From an uncultured bacterium (GTDB lineage: Bacteria; Krumholzibacteriota; Krumholzibacteriia; JACNKJ01), in assembly GCA_963695095.1 (NCBI GenBank), contig CAVOFT010000001.1, positions 2,496,001 through 2,560,000 on the forward strand: DNA of 64,000 nt. Direction: 5' to 3'. Position numbers: made by a program. Below, piece after piece: positions 31,501 through 37,500 of the stretch. How positions within the stretch are numbered: the stretch's first letter is position 1; each line of letters begins with the position of its first letter.

Positions 31501-34500
31501 CCTGCATCACGGCCGTCCACACCGTATTGCGCCGCACGCGCAGGCTGTTGTCCCCGTCGGCGAGAGCGCCGGCAGGCACGGTGGCGCTGTAGTCGATGGC
31601 CTGCGCGAGGCTGAAGATGCACTGGGGCAGGGCAGTGCTGCCGCCGCCGTTGACGATCTCCACGTCGAAGACCCGCGCCGTGGTCGTGTTGTGCGTGCCC
31701 TGGAAGTGCAGCTTCAGCGTGGCCTCGCTGCCCGCCAGGATGCCGGGGCTGGCCAGGGGCAGGGTCAGCGTGAAGTTCTGGGCATGGGCCGGTTGCGCGA
31801 AGTAGTAGAGGTTCTCCCGCCAGGTCTCGCTGGCGCCGTCGTAGAGCAGGGAGGGCGGATTCGCTAGGAAGAAGCTCTCGCCCCAGGCGGCGCGGCGGCG
31901 CAGGAAGTCCGACGGCAGCGACCAGCCCCCGCCCTCGCTCCAGGCGACCTCGCTGGCCATCTCGCTGACGAGAGCCGGCGCGCGGCCGGCGAAGTAGGCC
32001 GCCGCGCGGCCGTAGGCCTCGAGGGCGTCGGGGCTGTCCTCGGCGTGGCGCAGGCGGCTGCCGATGAAGACGAGGGTGTCGTCGGCATCGAGCAAGGCAT
32101 CGCCGTCGCGGTCGAGGAAGTAGCGGGGCTCGGGAATCTGCGTGAACTCGGGCTCGCCGGCCGGACTCCAGGCGAAGCGCTGGCGCCAGATGGCGATCTC
32201 GGCCAGCGGCGTGCCCAGGCCGATGTCCCAGGCCGCGAGCGCGGCGCCGCTCACGCCGTGAAGACCATCGGTGGTGGTGAGCAGCTTCAGGCTCGGCTGC
32301 GCACTGCCTGCGCGCGGCCCGCGGGGCGATGCGGCGGGCAGGCGGCGCGCCCAGCCGCCGGCCGCCTCGGCATTGAGCAAGGCGCTCGCATAGACGGGCG
32401 CGAAGAGCGGATCCGGCGTTCGCAGGGCCTCGCCGGCTGCGGCGCGTTCGGCCTCCCCGACACCCGGCCGAAAGCTGAGCGTGACGCGCAAGGCGCTGGC
32501 CAGGCGCAAGCCGCGCGCGGGATCCCAGCCCACCGGCTCGACGATGAGCTCCTGCACCCAGAGATCGCGGAGCTGGCGCCGGGCGCCGAGGCGAACCCCC
32601 AGCGGATAGCTCTCGCCAAAGGCGGCCGGATCGCGCAGGAGCTGCTCCAGGGGCGGCGCGCCGTCGGCGGGGCCCGCAGTCAGGGTCGGGAAGGGCAGCG
32701 GCTCGCCGGCCAGGGCCTCGCTCCCCAGGAGCTGCCAGCTGAGCCGCGCCACGCTACCCGGCGGCAGGGCCACCTGACCGCGCCAGCGCGGGAGCAGGGG
32801 CGCCCCCGAGGCGCTCGGTGTCTCGGCGATGGCGCTCTCGAGGCCGCAGCCGGGCAAGGCGAGCAGGAGCCCCTCATCGGTGGCCCGGATTTCATCCGCC
32901 GTGAAGCGGAACTCCAGGCTGAGGCCGGCGGCATCGCTGGCCAGCAGCCGGCTCGCCGGCGGCAGGCCGCCTTGAGCGCCGGCGACAGCGGGCAGGACCA
33001 GCGCCAGGCCGGCCGCGGCGCAGGCAATGAGCAGTGTGCGAAGCTGCACGGATCCCTCCGGTCGGGGTGCGGCTGAAGGATCGCATCCAGCAGGGATGGC
33101 AGGCCGTGGGCGCCCAGGGATGCCGAAAGCTAGCATCGCGGCCGGGCGCTGTCCAGGCGCGGCGGTCGCCTGGAGAGAAGAAACGGCCCTCCCCGGCCCG
33201 CAGCAGCGGGGCAGGGAAGGCCATTGAGGTGATCCCGCAGTCGTCAGGAACGAAGCTAGTACAGGGCCTTGATCGAACCCCAGTTGCTCGCTTCGACACT
33301 CGTCTCGCAGGGACAATCGCCCGTGCAGTTGAAGGTGAAGTTCCAGCCATCGACGATATGCTCATCGAAAGTCGTCGCATCGACGATGATCACACCCAGG
33401 AGATTCGGCGGGTCGCCCTTGGCGATCGTCATCGTGTAGTCGCTACCTACCCAGGCGCCCAGAGGCAAGAACTCCACGTAGCCGAGCTGGAACACGCCGC
33501 TCGCCAGGTAGGGAGTCCAGGCGAGAGCCAGGTCGACCGTGATGTCGCCGATGGCCAGGGTGGTGGTCCAGTGCGGGGTGATGATGCCTCCTGCGGCCGG
33601 CCAGTTCGTCACCTTGAATTCCACGGCACTCACGCCGAGAATCTCCGCAGGATCCGCATAGCCCACGAAGTAGACGCTCACCGACACGTAGGGCGTGCTC
33701 ATGTCCGCGACGCAGTCGGTCATCGCCTGATCGTTGAACATGCCGATGTAGCTGGAAGCCTGGGCGGACGTGCCCGCGGCAACGAGCGCCAGAAGTGCAA
33801 GTAAGATGCGCATTTTCTTCATCATGACCCTCCTGCGGGTACCTCGGATAGATGGACAGTCATCACCGGAGTGCGGCCTTAGCGCGGGTAAACTAACACC
33901 CGGTTTTTCTGAGTGTCAACAGAAAGGGGAGCGCGGCCTCGCGGAAATCGGCGGCCGCGCAGCGGTAAGCCGCCGCAAATGAAGCGACCGCCGGCCGAAG
34001 CCGGCGGTCGCAATCGAAGACCCAGTTAACGATGCAGCCTAGTACAGAGCCTTGATCTGGCCCCAGGTGGCATCCTCGGTCGCGATGGTCGGCTGGCAAT
34101 TGCAGCCATACTCCAGGGCGCCCGTGCAGTTGAAGGTGAAGAAGTGGTCGGGCTCGCAGTCCCACTCGATGTAGTCCGTGTCGACCACGACCAGGCAGTT
34201 GCAATCGTTGCCGGGCATGATCGTCATGCGGAAGTCCGCACCCAGGTCGGCCAGCGCCAGGAACTGGAGCGTGCCCAGCAAGGCGACGGGGCCGGGGAGG
34301 GGCGGCGTGAAGGCCAGCGCCAGATCATGACCCATGGTACCGATCACGAGCGTCGTGTTCCACGTGGGGGTGATGATCGCGGCCGCGGGGCCGGGGAGGT
34401 TGTCGATGCGGAACTCGGCAGCCGTGATCGCAGGAATGTCGGTCTCCGGCAGGACCGCGAAGACATAGACATTCATCGGCACGAACGGCGTCAGGTCCGC

Positions 34501-37500
34501 CTCGCACAGCACGGCCGTGTCATCGGCGTACAGGCCGATGAAGGGCTGGCTCTGCGCGGCGGCAACACTGCTCATGGCGACCAGGAGCAGAAGAGCGGCC
34601 ATCAATTTCTTCATGTTGCAACTCCTTGAGATGTTTTAGAGAGTGGTGACAAGCCGAAGCTTGGTACCCATTGCCCAGTCTAGAGCCTGAGCCGCGCTCT
34701 CCGAACCCTGCTTGCCAGCCGGAGACGTCTCCAAGTACTCGGCCGGCATTCTGGGCGGGGTCGCCGGTAGGCCGACGACCCCTTTCAACCGCAAGTCGAA
34801 ACTAGTACAGAGCCTTGATCTGGCCCCAAGCAGCCTCCTCGGCCGCGATGGTGGCCTCGCACTGGCAGGCACCATTGGGACCACCCACAACACAGTTGAT
34901 GATCATGCGCCAACCCTCGGCCGGAACCTCGGACGCGGTCTCGGCATCCACGACCACCAGGTTGCCGGCGCCCGAGGGCACGACTTCCATCACGAAGTCG
35001 GCGGCAGGAGGCACCTGACCACCGATGTAGGCGATGCTGCCCAGGTAGGCCAGGGGCGCCTCCAGGGGCGTCGTGAAGGCCAGCGCCACGCCGTCGGGCG
35101 TCATGATGTTGCCGATGACCAGGGTGGTGTTCCAGGCCGGGGTCGCGGCGAGAGCGCCGGTAGCCGCCTGGGTGACACCCGTGGCACCGAACTCGCAGGC
35201 GCTCATCGTGGGCACGCTGGGCTCGAGCAGGGCGACGAAGTACACGGTGACGGAGGCGTAGGGCGTGGTCCAGGCCTTCGAGCAGGTAAGCGCACCCTGC
35301 TCACCGAAGATCCCGATCACGTTGGCGGCACTCGCAGCACTGGCCATCAGGACCAGGCTCAGCGCCAAAGCAGCGATCACACTCTTCTTCATTTGGCGAA
35401 CTCCTCTACGTTGTTGATGCCGACTGGTGAAAAAGCTGTAACGCCAATTGAATTCGTTCGCAGCTCACACTCTGTTGAGCCCGAGTCCAGCATTCGCTGG
35501 GCCCGGTGTGCCCCGCGGCATCCGCGGGGCACGATCTGGACCAACGTGCGCCTAGGGGCAGCTGCTCACGTTGAAGAACCCAGCGAAGATACCGAAGTCC
35601 GCAACGGTCACGTTCGGCGAGCCGACGCTCTCGTTGTAGTTCGCGCAGTTGCCATCGCCCTGGAAGAAGCCGGCGAAGAGACCGAAGTCAGCGACGGTCA
35701 CGGTGCCGCTACCGTTCAGGTCGGGGCTGTTGACGCTCAGGGTCAGGTCGGCGATGACGTTGCCCACCGCAACCACGTTCATGCTGATGTTCGCGCACTG
35801 GGCGCCATTCACCACACCGCCGCGGGGCGTGCCCGTGAAGGTCGTGTGACCGGGGTCGGGCGCGAAGGTCGAGCTATCGGCGATGACGCCGCCCGCGCAC
35901 CAGACGACGAGGGGATCCTCGAGCCAGATGTCGGAGGCGATGATCTCGACGGGGTTGTTGCCCGAGTCGTTCACACTACACATCGATCGTGCGGTTGACA
36001 GGAACCACGAAGCTGTCCGCGCCGCCGGGCGCGATCGTCATGATACCGGGCGTGGCGATCGTCGCGGAGCTATTCGCGGGATCGACGATGCCGGCATTGG
36101 CGTTGGTGACCAGAAGGGCCAGCGCGGCCATCAGCACGAGAATCTTTCTGCTAGTCATCGGCAGAAGCACCTCCTACAAAGGGTAGCATTGAGCGACAGT
36201 CCCGACTGGCAAGGACAAGAGCGATCGCTCGGTTGTATGTAAGCAAGGGCACTACTTGCAGGGGCTTTAAGGATACCACCTCCGTCCCCAGTTACACAAG
36301 CCACAGTTGCGTTGCCACTCAGGAGCGGCTCCACCTCTGTGGGGAATCTTCCTGCGGTGGCTTGTGAGTATATCAGAGCTGGAAAATCGCTGTCAATCGG
36401 CATCCGCGCCTGACGCGAAATACTAACGGCATCTTCCCGAACCACTTACATGCCCCTTGCGGAAGGATCCGCTCGCAGGGACCGCGGCTGGGAAGGTGGG
36501 GAGGGGGGTGGGCGAAACAGGGCTCGAACCTGTGACCCCCTGCGTGTAAGGCAGATGCTCTCCCAACTGAGCTATTCGCCCCGGGACGGTCGGCCCCCTC
36601 CTGACTCGGAGTGGCCGAGCCTGAAGAGCGCCGCCGGAATGAGCAGGCAGTAGCCGGCCACGAGGAGAAGGGGCGCCAGGGTCATGCTGCCCATGCCCAG
36701 GGCGACATAGCCCAGGGCGATGGCGATCACGCCCGCCGCGAAGAGCCCCTTGAAACCCGCTAGACGAAGGCTGGCAGCCACGGTCCCCTCCTGATTGCAG
36801 TCGCCACCGAGTCCCGCTCGGACGAGGAAGCTACGGATTCGAGTCCGGCTCTGTCAAGCTGCTGCGGCTGAGCCGGCTCAAGCTCCCCGAGTGGAAGGGC
36901 CGCAAGTCCAGGGACACCGAGCCGAAGCCCAGCGCCCGCAGCCCCTCGTCGACGGAGGCGGCCAGGCCGGGGGCCGCCAGGCGCCCCCACTCCTCGCCCC
37001 CCAGCTCGATGCGGGCGAGCAGGCCGTGATGGCGCACGCGATAGTCGCGGAAGCCGAGATCGCGCAGGAGCTTTTCGGCCTGGCCCAGCTGGTCGAGCTT
37101 CTCGGCCGTCACTTCGCTGAAATGGGGAATGCGGCTGGCCAGACAGGCCCGCGCCGGCCGGTCCCAGATCGACAGGCCGCGCTCCCGGGCGAGGCGACGG
37201 ATGTCGGCCTTCTCCAGGCCGGCCTCGGCCAGCGGCGCTCGCACCCGGTAGCGGCGGGCCGCGTCGGCCCCCGGTCGCTCCTCGCCGAGGTCGCTGCGAT
37301 TGCCCCCGTAGACGAGGGTCTGGAAAGCCTCGGCCGCGGCCAGGGCCTCCATCTGCTGGAAGAGCTCCTGCTTGCAGAAGAAGCAGCGATCGGGGGCGTT
37401 CGCGCGGTAGTCGGCGTTCTCGAGTTCGCGGGTGGCCAGCACGCGCACGGGCACGCCCCACTCGGCCGCGAAGACGAGGGCCTCGTCCCGCTCCCAGTCG

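What a model noticed while it worked through the whole genome (the two positions that open the first line are those of the whole stretch)
33256..35392. New C-terminal tag S-[WF]-[SG]-x-[IV]-K-[SA]-L-Y-COOH on 45 exported proteins, exclusive of the T9SS tail
45 called proteins of this genome (46 with the read-through selenoprotein g01080) end in the same motif, T-[AP]-[TV]-E-x-x-S-[WF]-[SG]-x-[IV]-K-[SA]-L-Y; in 37 of them it ends exactly at the last residue. They are small (median 216 aa), and nearly all have signal peptides and no known domain. None carries the FlgD_ig/Por_Secre_tail domain found on 107 other proteins. The motif is modular and lies outside the folded domain, so it has the hallmarks of a sorting or anchoring signal of an undescribed kind. 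Example (the coordinates given): the tandem genes g02214-g02216, beside the C25-peptidase gene g02213.
Evidence so far: The regex [WFY][GSA].[ILVM]K.[LIMVAR][YFW] matches 45 proteins within 6 residues of the C-terminus and 4 elsewhere, out of 3175 proteins. Twenty shuffles of every protein give 0.1 C-terminal and 3.4 total matches. 42 of 45 have a signal-peptide-like N-terminus, against 43% of the proteome by the same crude rule. 37 have no Pfam row and 42 no NCBIfam row. Position counts are K 45/45, L 42, Y 42, S(-1) 34, T(-7) 30. With the last 22 residues removed, the 45 fall into 28 BLASTP clusters (24 singletons). The same core domains occur in other proteins here that end in a T9SS tail instead (g02495/g02575, g02215/g02944, g02262/g00532, g02769/g00626). 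No NCBIfam or Pfam model hits the tag or three ta [...]
(Added by a program. Inside this text positions count along the whole contig: contig position 2,496,001 is position 1 of the stretch shown here. "Call 12" and the like, gene names such as g00115 and contig names such as C1 are that model's own, and its searches are not shown. The text may have been shortened before it was handed on; [...] marks where a part breaks off. The agent that wrote the report below was given it as the finding of a first reader that could run no searches.)

Follow-up and report, generated by a model that had tools for sequence, protein, structure and literature searches.

The report
Short C-terminal tag on exported proteins
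About fifty small exported proteins of this uncultured bacterium, and many more across two candidate phyla, end in the same 16-residue tail, which looks like an undescribed address or anchor label used instead of the known type IX secretion tail.

Summary
A six-frame scan finds 45 ORFs ending in the motif, against 0.04 in shuffles. A relaxed pattern gives 51. None of the 51 is among the 163 proteins with a FlgD_ig-like T9SS tail.

The tag is T-[AP]-[TV]-E-x-x-[ST]-[WF]-[GS]-x-[IV]-K-[SA]-L-Y. It sits on 34 unrelated core families. These proteins are small (median 216 aa, against 591 aa for T9SS-tailed ones) and 45 of 51 have a signal peptide. In an AlphaFold model the tail is unstructured.

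New here: a tail profile hits 208 of 208 Krumholzibacteriota species genomes and 111 of 121 sampled Eisenbacteria. Outside the window's family, 1-4 polar residues follow the Tyr, so a free Tyr carboxylate is not required.

No Pfam or NCBIfam model covers the tail, and six literature searches found no description.

The three window proteins have a cohesin-like fold. They lie beside a dockerin-like gene and a C25 peptidase, and this gene order is kept in Eisenbacteria.

No machinery was found. SprA, the C25 peptidase and an S41-PDZ protease do not track the tag.

Best reading: a modular envelope retention or anchoring signal. Its function is untested.

The parts
33256..33825 (-). Tagged exported protein 1 (189 aa). 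It has a Sec-type signal peptide and a core homologous to the cohesin-like paralogue at 34802-35392. The tag is its last 16 residues.
   Evidence: ORF and tail. Aligned with the paralogues. No Pfam or NCBIfam hit.
33259..33306 (-). C-terminal tag of protein 1 (16 codons before the stop): T-S-V-E-A-S-N-W-G-S-I-K-A-L-Y type.
34039..34614 (-). Tagged exported protein 2 (191 aa), a paralogue of protein 1. Its core is 52% identical to a module of the T9SS-tailed multi-module protein g2989.
34042..34089 (-). C-terminal tag of protein 2.
34802..35392 (-). Tagged exported protein 3 (196 aa). This is the one modelled: the core is a cohesin-like beta-sandwich and the tail is disordered.
   Evidence: AlphaFold model. 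Foldseek. VIA-align gives Z 11.7 to cohesin 2vo8_A. 39 homologues keep the tag.
34805..34852 (-). C-terminal tag of protein 3.
28937..33049 (-). Context: a C25 (PorU-like) peptidase with a FlgD_ig T9SS-type tail, directly downstream of the three tagged genes. It is syntenic in Eisenbacteria, but its presence does not track the tag.
   Evidence: Pfam Peptidase_C25 at 1.8e-43 and FlgD_ig at 4.1e-09. NCBIfam PorU at 1.5e-24, below the cut-off. Phyletic test.
35552..36158 (-). Context: an exported protein whose C-terminus holds two dockerin-like repeats and ends in C-P. In this assembly it is split into two ORFs. The neighbourhood is conserved in Eisenbacteria.
   Evidence: NCBIfam dockerin_GC at E 0.049 only. 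No Pfam hit. Repeat pattern and homologues. Synteny.

Best explanation
The tail is a modular envelope-retention or anchoring tag for Sec-exported proteins. It is used in this lineage as the alternative to the roughly 80-residue T9SS C-terminal domain, mainly on small single-domain proteins.

Proposed course:
1. The signal peptide takes the protein across the inner membrane. The signal peptide is shown by sequence. The export is inferred.
2. The folded domain ends, often at a Cys. A flexible Thr/Pro/Glu-rich linker (T-P-V-E-E-S/T) then presents an 8-9-residue element, W-G-x-I-K-x-L-Y. The anatomy is shown. The flexibility comes from a model.
3. This element is read as a short linear motif by a conserved envelope component. 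I think a protein receptor is most likely. That component holds the cargo at the envelope or cell surface (inferred).

In the window the cargo is three cohesin-like modules beside a dockerin-like protein. This is the layout of an anchoring scaffoldin (cohesin plus anchor), with the tag in the place of the anchor. That comparison is an inference by analogy.
For: 1. Modularity and exclusivity. 51 tagged proteins fall in 34 BLASTP clusters. None of them is among the 163 T9SS-tailed proteins. The same core families carry either tail: the beta-helix cluster has 10 tagged and 8 T9SS-tailed members, and cohesin-like modules also occur in the T9SS-tailed g2989.

2. Export. 45 of 51 tagged proteins have signal-peptide-like N-termini, against 898 of 3,173 others.

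3. Not part of the fold. Tail pLDDT is under 50 while the core is above 90.

4. Residue-specific conservation independent of the carrier. K is invariant in 48 of 48 tails, and L, Y and W/F are near-invariant. The tag is almost unchanged in homologues whose cores are only 38-85% identical. The profile hits 208 of 208 Krumholzibacteriota genomes and 111 of 121 sampled Eisenbacteria (one of the 121, G227, is unpublished).

5. Always terminal or near-terminal. 20 of 20 best hits in other families lie 0-4 residues from the stop.

6. Cargo types are those that elsewhere carry surface anchors: beta-helix/PMP repeats, PPC, MAM, LamG, and weak choice-of-anchor hits.

7. The window trio has a cohesin fold (Foldseek E 1.7e-05; VIA-align Z 11.7, rmsd 2.8 A over 125 residues, with the top 17 hits all cohesins). 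It lies next to a dockerin-like protein. In known cellulosomes, single cohesins of this kind carry a cell-surface anchor. That last point is recalled, not tested here.
Against: - No receptor, enzyme or constant neighbour was found.
- Three candidates do not track the tag among 121 Eisenbacteria. SprA is present in 115, including all 10 tag-free genomes. The C25 peptidase is present in 113, including all 10 tag-free genomes. The tricorn-like S41-PDZ protease is present in 81, including 3 of the 10 tag-free genomes, and was not found in four genomes with 26-49 tail matches each.
- Cargo includes a cupredoxin and a CxxCH cytochrome. Such proteins usually work in the periplasm, so the destination may not be the cell surface.
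- How a Sec-exported protein would cross the outer membrane without a T9SS domain is unexplained.
- The 'tag-free' Eisenbacteria may carry a diverged tail (one example), which weakens the phyletic tests.
- The localisation and the fate of the tag (kept or cleaved) are unknown.
Confidence: 0.45

Rival explanations
1. In-plane membrane anchor. The last 8-9 residues form a short amphipathic helix. Trp, Ile/Val, Leu and Tyr sit on one face and the Lys snorkels. The helix dips into a membrane leaflet and tethers periplasmic proteins without any receptor. This would resemble the C-terminal helices of PBP5 or MinD (recalled, not tested here).
For: The hydrophobic residues are spaced at -7, -4, -1 and 0, which fits a helix and not a strand. 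The AlphaFold model shows a short helix at residues 190-195, but at pLDDT under 50. No machinery or constant neighbour was found, as expected if none is needed. Cupredoxin and cytochrome c cargo would gain from tethering near the respiratory membrane. Extra polar or basic residues after the Tyr are tolerated.
Against: The sequence conservation is much stricter than amphipathicity requires. K is invariant in 48 of 48 tails, the residues at -6 and -2 are small, S/T sits at -8 and -9, and the upstream T-P-V-E is also conserved, all across two phyla. Eight to nine residues is short for stable monomeric membrane binding (general knowledge).
Confidence: 0.2
2. Cleaved sorting signal. A periplasmic or outer-membrane transpeptidase or peptidase, for example a PorU-like C25 enzyme, cuts in the T-P-V-E linker. 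It either links the new C-terminus covalently to an envelope component or simply matures the protein.
For: The motif has two parts, a conserved linker (T-[AP]-[TV]-E) and a recognition element, which recalls sortase-type signals. A C25 peptidase lies next to the tagged trio in the window. Within about 10 kb of tagged genes it is also found in the Eisenbacteria genomes G208 and G238.
Against: The C25 peptidase is present in all 10 tag-free Eisenbacteria, so it is probably the ordinary T9SS sortase. Only 3 of 51 tagged genes in this genome lie beside it. No transmembrane segment or basic cluster follows the motif, unlike all sortase, exosortase and rhombosortase signals.
Confidence: 0.12
3. C-terminal pro-peptide or degradation tag. 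A PDZ-bearing C-terminal processing protease (S41 family) reads it to control the maturation or turnover of exported proteins.
For: The position is near-terminal and the end is hydrophobic. A tricorn-like S41 protease with a PDZ domain lies directly upstream of one tagged gene.
Against: That protease does not track the tag. It is present in 3 of the 10 tag-free Eisenbacteria and was not found in four genomes with 26-49 tail matches each. It neighbours only 1 of 51 tagged genes. Variable 0-4-residue extensions after the Tyr argue against recognition of a fixed free C-terminus. It is hard to see why about 50 unrelated proteins per genome would keep a degradation tag across two phyla.
Confidence: 0.08
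4. Structural or assembly element with no addressing role. The tail would be a strand or helix that completes the carrier's own fold, or that drives self-association.
For: Tandem paralogues carry the tag, so hetero-oligomers are conceivable.
Against: The tail occurs on 34 unrelated core families, including beta-helices, cupredoxin and cohesin-like sandwiches. It is separated from the core by a low-confidence linker and is not packed in the model. It is interchangeable with the T9SS tail within families.
Confidence: 0.05

Closest known systems
T9SS C-terminal domains (type A Por_Secre_tail/TIGR04183; the FlgD_ig-like tails used in this genome)
   Same: Both are C-terminal modular tails on Sec-exported proteins of FCB-group bacteria. 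Both occur on the same kinds of cargo and even on the same core families in this genome.
   Different: The T9SS signal is a folded Ig-like domain of about 70-100 residues. This tag is about 16 residues and unstructured in the model. No T9SS model matches it. It never co-occurs with that domain. The T9SS translocon SprA is present in genomes where the tag was not found.
Tripartite sortase-type signals (LPXTG, PEP-CTERM, GlyGly-CTERM, MYXO-CTERM and the Cys-containing signals of Haft 2023, bioRxiv 10.1101/2023.06.07.544157; I saw the search listing and ran a term search only)
   Same: Both are short conserved signature motifs near the C-terminus. Both occur in dozens of copies per genome, are lineage-wide and are modular. 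A Cys often lies just upstream of this tag (19 of 20 tails in other Krumholzibacteriota families).
   Different: Those signals have a transmembrane helix and a basic cluster after the motif, and a dedicated membrane protease. Here only 0-4 residues follow the motif. No NCBIfam sorting-domain model hits.
Anchoring scaffoldins of cellulosomes, that is a single cohesin plus an SLH domain or LPXTG signal, for example R. flavefaciens ScaE (the architecture is recalled; the ScaE cohesin 2zf9 is among the fold hits)
   Same: The window trio are single cohesin-fold modules with a C-terminal tail where an anchor would sit. A dockerin-like protein is encoded next door. Multi-module cohesin-like proteins exist elsewhere in the genome.
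   Different: This organism has a type IX secretion system and outer-membrane barrel genes, so I take it to be diderm, whereas cellulosome producers are Gram-positive. There is no Pfam cohesin or dockerin hit, so the likeness is by fold and motif only. Binding is untested. The tag also sits on many non-cohesin proteins.
C-terminal amphipathic membrane anchors (E. coli PBP5/PBP6, MinD membrane-targeting sequence; recalled)
   Same: Both are terminal, short and amphipathic, with Trp/Tyr/Lys-type interfacial residues. Neither needs dedicated machinery.
   Different: Those anchors are conserved in character rather than in exact sequence, and each belongs to one protein family. This tag is a strict motif shared by unrelated families over two phyla.
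Outer-membrane-protein beta-signal (C-terminal aromatic residue read by BAM; recalled)
   Same: Both have a C-terminal aromatic residue on exported proteins of a diderm.
   Different: The hydrophobic residues here are at 0, -1, -4 and -7, not alternating. The Tyr is not terminal in most lineages. The carriers are soluble domains, not barrels.

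Membership tests
T9SS type A C-terminal domain (Por_Secre_tail / FlgD_ig-like) | A folded C-terminal beta-sandwich domain of about 70-100 residues | tested here: not met
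   The conserved tail is about 16-22 residues. In the AlphaFold model residues 180-196 have pLDDT under 50 and do not form a domain.
T9SS type A C-terminal domain (Por_Secre_tail / FlgD_ig-like) | A match to the family profiles (PF18962, PF13860, TIGR04183) | tested here: not met
   None of 51 tagged proteins hits these in Pfam at E <= 0.01. None of 67 hits them in NCBIfam at E <= 1. An in-genome iterated tail HMM finds 163 tailed proteins and none of the 51.
T9SS type A C-terminal domain (Por_Secre_tail / FlgD_ig-like) | Occurrence tied to T9SS machinery | tested here: inconclusive
   SprA-like and PorV-like genes are present in this genome. SprA_N is found in 115 of 121 Eisenbacteria, including all 10 where the tag was not found. 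Two genomes with 13 and 17 tail matches gave no SprA match, and their completeness is unknown.
Sortase/exosortase/rhombosortase/myxosortase-type C-terminal sorting domains | A signature motif followed by a hydrophobic transmembrane helix and a basic cluster | tested here: not met
   Only 0-4 mostly polar residues follow the motif: none in 40 of 51 own tails, and 1-4 in 19 of 20 tails from other families.
Sortase/exosortase/rhombosortase/myxosortase-type C-terminal sorting domains | A match to an NCBIfam sorting-domain model | tested here: not met
   No such model hits any of 67 tagged proteins at E <= 1.
OMP beta-signal | A terminal aromatic residue with alternating hydrophobic residues, as the last strand of a beta-barrel | tested here: not met
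   The hydrophobic positions are 0, -1, -4 and -7. The Tyr is followed by 1-4 residues in 19 of 20 tails from other families. The modelled carrier is a soluble sandwich.
Dockerin (the tag itself as a dockerin) | A duplicated calcium-binding F-hand module of about 60-70 residues | tested here: not met
   The tag is 16 residues with no D-x-N-x-D-G loop. No Pfam dockerin hit.
Cohesin (core of the three window proteins) | A nine-stranded jelly-roll cohesin fold | tested here: met
   Foldseek against the PDB: the top hits are all cohesins, with 6kgf_C at E 1.7e-05 and TM 0.49/0.62. VIA-align: 2vo8_A at Z 11.7, rmsd 2.8 A over 125 residues, and the top 17 rows are all cohesins.
Cohesin (core of the three window proteins) | Sequence membership (Pfam Cohesin) and dockerin binding | tested here: inconclusive
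   No Pfam family hits at E <= 1. Dockerin binding has not been established by any test and needs an experiment.
C-terminal amphipathic membrane anchor (PBP5/MinD type) | A terminal amphipathic helix long enough to lie in a membrane interface | tested here: inconclusive
   The periodicity fits a helix. The model shows a 6-residue helix at low confidence. Membrane binding cannot be tested with these tools.

The most novel reading that the evidence does not exclude
Krumholzibacteriota and Eisenbacteria possess a previously unrecognised protein-addressing system. A transmembrane-less, near-terminal linear motif of about 16 residues is read by an unknown, lineage-wide envelope receptor or enzyme. 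It works in parallel to the T9SS tail. It places dozens of small exported proteins per cell at the envelope, among them cohesin-like modules that could assemble dockerin-bearing partners into cellulosome-like surface complexes in a diderm bacterium.
Probability: 0.35. Interest if true: 0.85.

Novelty: new variant of a known kind. Interest (0 to 1): 0.72.

Why it matters
C-terminal sorting tags such as LPXTG, PEP-CTERM and the T9SS domain have each led to a secretion or anchoring machine. They are also used to predict the surface proteome.

This tag marks dozens of proteins per genome in 208 of 208 species genomes of one candidate phylum and in most sampled genomes of a second. Yet those proteins are annotated as plain hypothetical proteins, and current domain libraries do not see the tail.

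A profile of the tag would at once label thousands of proteins in metagenomes as one functional class. It would also give a handle for finding the reader of the tag, by phylogenetic profiling or by peptide-receptor structure screens.

The link to cohesin-like modules suggests organised multi-protein assemblies in uncultured FCB bacteria that are common in sediments and sludge.

Tried and rejected
1. Strict DNA pattern (motif plus an immediate stop) as a phyletic marker. It suggested the tag was limited to the window's family and a few genera. This was an artefact of requiring the stop right after the Tyr. The protein profile hits all 208 genomes.

2. Global scan of genome contigs. It was capped at 80 loci, which were dominated by the window's family and Eisenbacteria. 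It therefore cannot show absence elsewhere. Single hits labelled Bacillota (the 'stop' is TGG) and Fibrobacteraceae (this genome is a Krumholzibacteriota member by its place) were discounted.

3. Search of the large protein collection with a tail profile (after two parameter errors). It returned almost only the genome's own proteins. E-values for a motif this short are too weak in 5.8 billion sequences.

4. Protein atlas search on residues 172-196. The nearest clusters are short Eiseniibacteriota fragments scoring under 0.9, so this is a lead only.

5. Machinery by neighbourhood.
   - Own genome: no recurrent functional neighbour. The recurrent families are HNH endonucleases, aldehyde dehydrogenases and small unknowns that duplicated together with beta-helix genes.
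   - Sixteen neighbourhoods in five tag-poor Eisenbacteria: no shared non-syntenic family.

6. Machinery by phyletic contrast in 121 Eisenbacteria (the set includes the unpublished G227). None of SprA_N, the window's C25 peptidase or the tricorn-like S41-PDZ protease tracks the tag. One of the 'tag-free' genomes shows a degenerate tail of the same shape with Arg for Lys, so the contrast set itself is soft.

7. The cohesin-like domain as the universal reader of the tag. The core profile A5 finds nothing in 121 Eisenbacteria at E <= 0.001. That search had no positive control in that phylum.

8. Complex prediction of the cohesin-like protein with the dockerin-like neighbour. No verdict (score 0.02, mark 0.32; the partner's own fold was uncertain). 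This is evidence neither for nor against binding.

9. TAG stop enrichment after the tag (35 of 48 against 45% genome-wide). It is explained by context: 39 of 56 untagged genes that end in Tyr also use TAG.

Full report
**What is at the coordinates**

Three tandem minus-strand genes lie at window 33256-33825, 34039-34614 and 34802-35392. They encode paralogous proteins of 189, 191 and 196 aa. Each has a Sec-type signal peptide and the same last residues...E-x-x-x-W-G-x-I-K-A-L-Y-stop.

Directly downstream lies a 1,370-1,459-aa C25 peptidase with a FlgD_ig tail (Pfam Peptidase_C25 at 1.8e-43, FlgD_ig at 4.1e-09). It matches NCBIfam PorU at 1.5e-24, below the curated cut-off. None of the three small proteins hits any Pfam or NCBIfam family at E <= 1.

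**The genome-wide observation holds**

45 matches lie within 6 residues of the stop, and 37 of those 45 end exactly at the last residue.
- On my own crude call of 3,224 genes the counts are 45 C-terminal and 49 total. Fifty shuffles give means of 0.04 and 3.88.
- Allowing Met at the Trp position, Thr at the next position and Phe before the Tyr raises the set to 51 proteins. One of them, g1244, has a doubtful tail and was left out of the tail alignments.
- Counts on 48 tails are K 48, L 45, Y 45, W/F/M 31/15/2, Ser at -8 36, Thr at -14 32.
- Conserved residues use several codons, including both Ser codon families. The DNA after the stop is unrelated. The constraint therefore acts on the protein.

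**Properties of the carriers**

- 45 of 51 have a signal-peptide-like N-terminus by a crude rule, against 898 of 3,173 other proteins. One has a clear lipobox by the script's pattern.
- They are small: median 216 aa (range 71-460). The 163 proteins with a FlgD_ig-like T9SS tail have a median of 591 aa (Mann-Whitney p = 2e-18).
- An iterated HMM seeded on the peptidase's tail finds 168 proteins. In 163 of them the domain lies within 35 residues of the C-terminus. None of the 51 tagged proteins is among them.
- After removing the tails, the 51 fall into 34 BLASTP clusters, 30 of which hold one tagged protein. The largest cluster (right-handed beta-helix proteins) holds 10 tagged, 8 T9SS-tailed and 7 other members.
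- In Pfam, 34 of 51 have no family at E <= 0.01. Ten hit Beta_helix. Single proteins hit Copper-bind (cupredoxin), PD40, Laminin_G_3, DUF7901, InhA-like MAM and PPC. One protein has a CxxCH haem motif.
- No Pfam or NCBIfam model aligns to the tail in any of them, nor in 20 tagged proteins from other genomes.

**The tail is outside the fold**

I ran AlphaFold2 on the 196-aa protein with 27 homologues. Mean pLDDT is 84.6. The beta-sandwich core (about residues 24-170) is above 90. Residues 180-196 are below 50, with a short helix at 190-195.

In the 39 database homologues (36-84% identical overall), 38 end in the tag and always at the very end. The exception, P0014, has an unrelated C-terminus that looks frameshifted.

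**Taxonomic range, the main new result**

One hit genome is labelled Candidatus Krumholzibacteriota in its public record, and it is the same genome as a same-family relative of the window's genome. The window's phylum is therefore Krumholzibacteriota, which is held as 208 species genomes in a single class.

A strict DNA pattern that required the stop right after the Tyr hit all 11 genomes of the window's family, with 5-48 hits each and almost none in the reversed-pattern control. It hit few genomes elsewhere.

A 22-column profile of 50 tails tells a different story:
- It hits 208 of 208 genomes at E <= 0.5 per genome. The best E is between 2e-10 and 5e-04 in all but one genome (0.0026).
- I read the best hit in each of 20 genomes from other families. 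All 20 are near-terminal tags on proteins of 139-267 aa with signal-peptide-like starts. In 19 of them 1-4 extra residues follow the Tyr (R, E, K, N, KE, SE, TD, RD, AN, REP, GIDR), and 19 of 20 have a Cys 13-19 residues before the Tyr.
- In Eisenbacteria, reached through a hit of the global scan, the profile hits 111 of 121 sampled genomes at E <= 0.01, with up to 65 matches. The tails there mostly end in ...T-W-G-K-I-K-A-L-Y-R.
- The Eisenbacteria counts include one unpublished genome, G227.

I could not test other phyla.

**What the window trio is**

Foldseek against the PDB returns only cohesin modules at the top (6kgf_C at E 1.7e-05). The independent VIA-align search gives 2vo8_A at Z 11.7 (rmsd 2.8 A over 125 residues), and its top 17 rows are all cohesins.

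The upstream neighbour (35552-36158) is split into two ORFs here. It has a signal peptide and a C-terminus with two repeats of the D-x-N-G-x-G-x-V-x-V-x-D-F-x-x-F kind, ending in C-P. Its only library hit is NCBIfam dockerin_GC at E 0.049, and Pfam finds nothing.

The gene order RuvX, MltG, (LarE-like), a small membrane protein, the dockerin-like gene, the tagged gene(s) and, within about 10 kb, the C25 peptidase recurs in two Eisenbacteria genomes.

Elsewhere in this genome, three adjacent large proteins each contain at least two cohesin-like modules. One of them has a T9SS tail.

In the cellulosome paradigm, which I recall rather than tested, a single cohesin carries a cell-surface anchor. 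Here the tag sits in that place.

**Search for a reader of the tag: negative**

- No functional neighbour recurs around the 51 genes.
- Nothing recurs around 16 tagged genes in five tag-poor Eisenbacteria, apart from shared synteny.
- This genome has a SprA-like gene and six or seven PorV-like barrels.
- In Eisenbacteria, SprA_N is present in 115 of 121 genomes, including all 10 without a tag hit.
- The C25 peptidase is present in 113 of 121, again including all 10.
- A tricorn-like S41-PDZ protease, which neighbours one tagged gene, is present in 81 of 121 with no relation to tag counts.
- The cohesin-like core profile finds nothing in 121 Eisenbacteria, so that family is not a universal partner of the tag.
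- One 'tag-free' genome shows a degenerate tail with Arg for Lys, so the contrast set is not clean.

**Interpretation**

Shown:
- A strictly conserved, modular, near-terminal linear motif.
- It sits on Sec-signal-bearing, mostly small proteins.
- It is mutually exclusive with, and interchangeable within families with, the T9SS tail.
- It is conserved across two candidate phyla.
- It is unknown to Pfam-A (2025 copy) and NCBIfam 20.0.

Inferred: something outside the carrier reads it, and it serves retention or anchoring in the envelope.

I favour a protein receptor or docking mechanism, for two reasons. The conservation is residue-specific: the Lys is invariant, the residues at -6 and -2 are small, S/T sits at -8 and -9, and the upstream T-P-V-E is conserved. 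And the register to the true C-terminus is variable, which argues against PDZ-like or beta-signal-like recognition.

The main rival is a receptor-free amphipathic membrane anchor. It fits the helical spacing, the lack of machinery, and the cupredoxin and cytochrome cargo. A cleaved sortase-type signal, a processing or degradation tag, and a purely structural role are less likely, for the reasons given under the rivals.

**Known or new**

The tag fails the defining features of T9SS C-terminal domains, of tripartite sortase-type signals, of the OMP beta-signal and of dockerins (see the membership tests).

Six full-text searches found no description:
- Krumholzibacteriota with C-terminal and secretion.
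- Six motif strings.
- Eisenbacteria with type IX secretion.
- Sorting-signal terms.
- Cohesin and dockerin with T9SS.
- A term search inside Haft's 2023 preprint on new Cys-containing sorting signals.

For these I saw only listings, abstract starts and term counts. Subscription journals are not covered, so a description under another name cannot be excluded.

Noticed in passing
window 35552-36158 (-): The dockerin-like exported protein is split into two overlapping ORFs. One holds the signal peptide (35976-36158) and the other the body (35552-35983). Homologues in Eisenbacteria are single ORFs of 194-282 aa. This is a frameshift or an assembly error.
   Followed up: partly
window 22230-26958 (-): Several genes in a row look broken. 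A Bmp/PnrA-like lipoprotein is split in two (25060-25662 and 24644-25084). A double ABC ATPase is split in two (23730-24641 and 23149-23769). An aminotransferase is present only as a 102-aa C-terminal fragment (26650-26958). This may reflect indel errors of a long-read assembly.
   Followed up: partly
G000 C1:3378326-3386500: Three adjacent large proteins (798, 962 and 1,038 aa by my gene call) each hold at least two cohesin-like modules, 30-54% identical to the window trio. The last one has a T9SS-type tail. The layout resembles a scaffoldin.
   Followed up: partly
G000 C1:1281207-1284401: A second copy of the window's C25 peptidase (49% identical over 810 residues) is present in pieces. Its T9SS-type tail lies in a separate 43-aa ORF.
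   Followed up: no
whole genome: Stop-codon context: genes that end in Tyr prefer TAG (39 of 56 untagged genes, 35 of 48 tagged genes), against about 42-45% TAG overall. TAG is unusually frequent for a 70% G+C genome.
   Followed up: yes
window 39199-42312 (-): A partner-switching module sits between RuvX and RluD/LspA/IleS: a SpoIIE-type phosphatase (747 aa), an HATPase_c_2 anti-sigma-type kinase and a STAS protein.
   Followed up: no
G000, e.g. L089:2616-3632 and L110:9478-10056: A nine-member family of HNH-endonuclease proteins recurs within four genes of tagged genes (6 neighbour incidences). This may mark mobile or variable regions where secreted-protein genes accumulate.
   Followed up: partly
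G000 C1:2961237-2962104: Two tagged genes converge with abutting stop codons, so the two tag-coding ends lie back to back on opposite strands.
   Followed up: no
L170:220-906 (+), an Eisenbacteria genome with no profile hit: A 228-aa protein beside the C25 peptidase locus ends in a degenerate version of the tag, with Arg in place of the invariant Lys and Thr in place of Leu. This suggests diverged tag variants that the profile misses.
   Followed up: no
G000 C1:295872-296849 and five or six other loci: There are six or seven PorV-like (FadL-family) barrel paralogues in one genome. All score below the curated PorV cut-off. Two lie within four genes of tagged and T9SS-tailed genes.
   Followed up: partly
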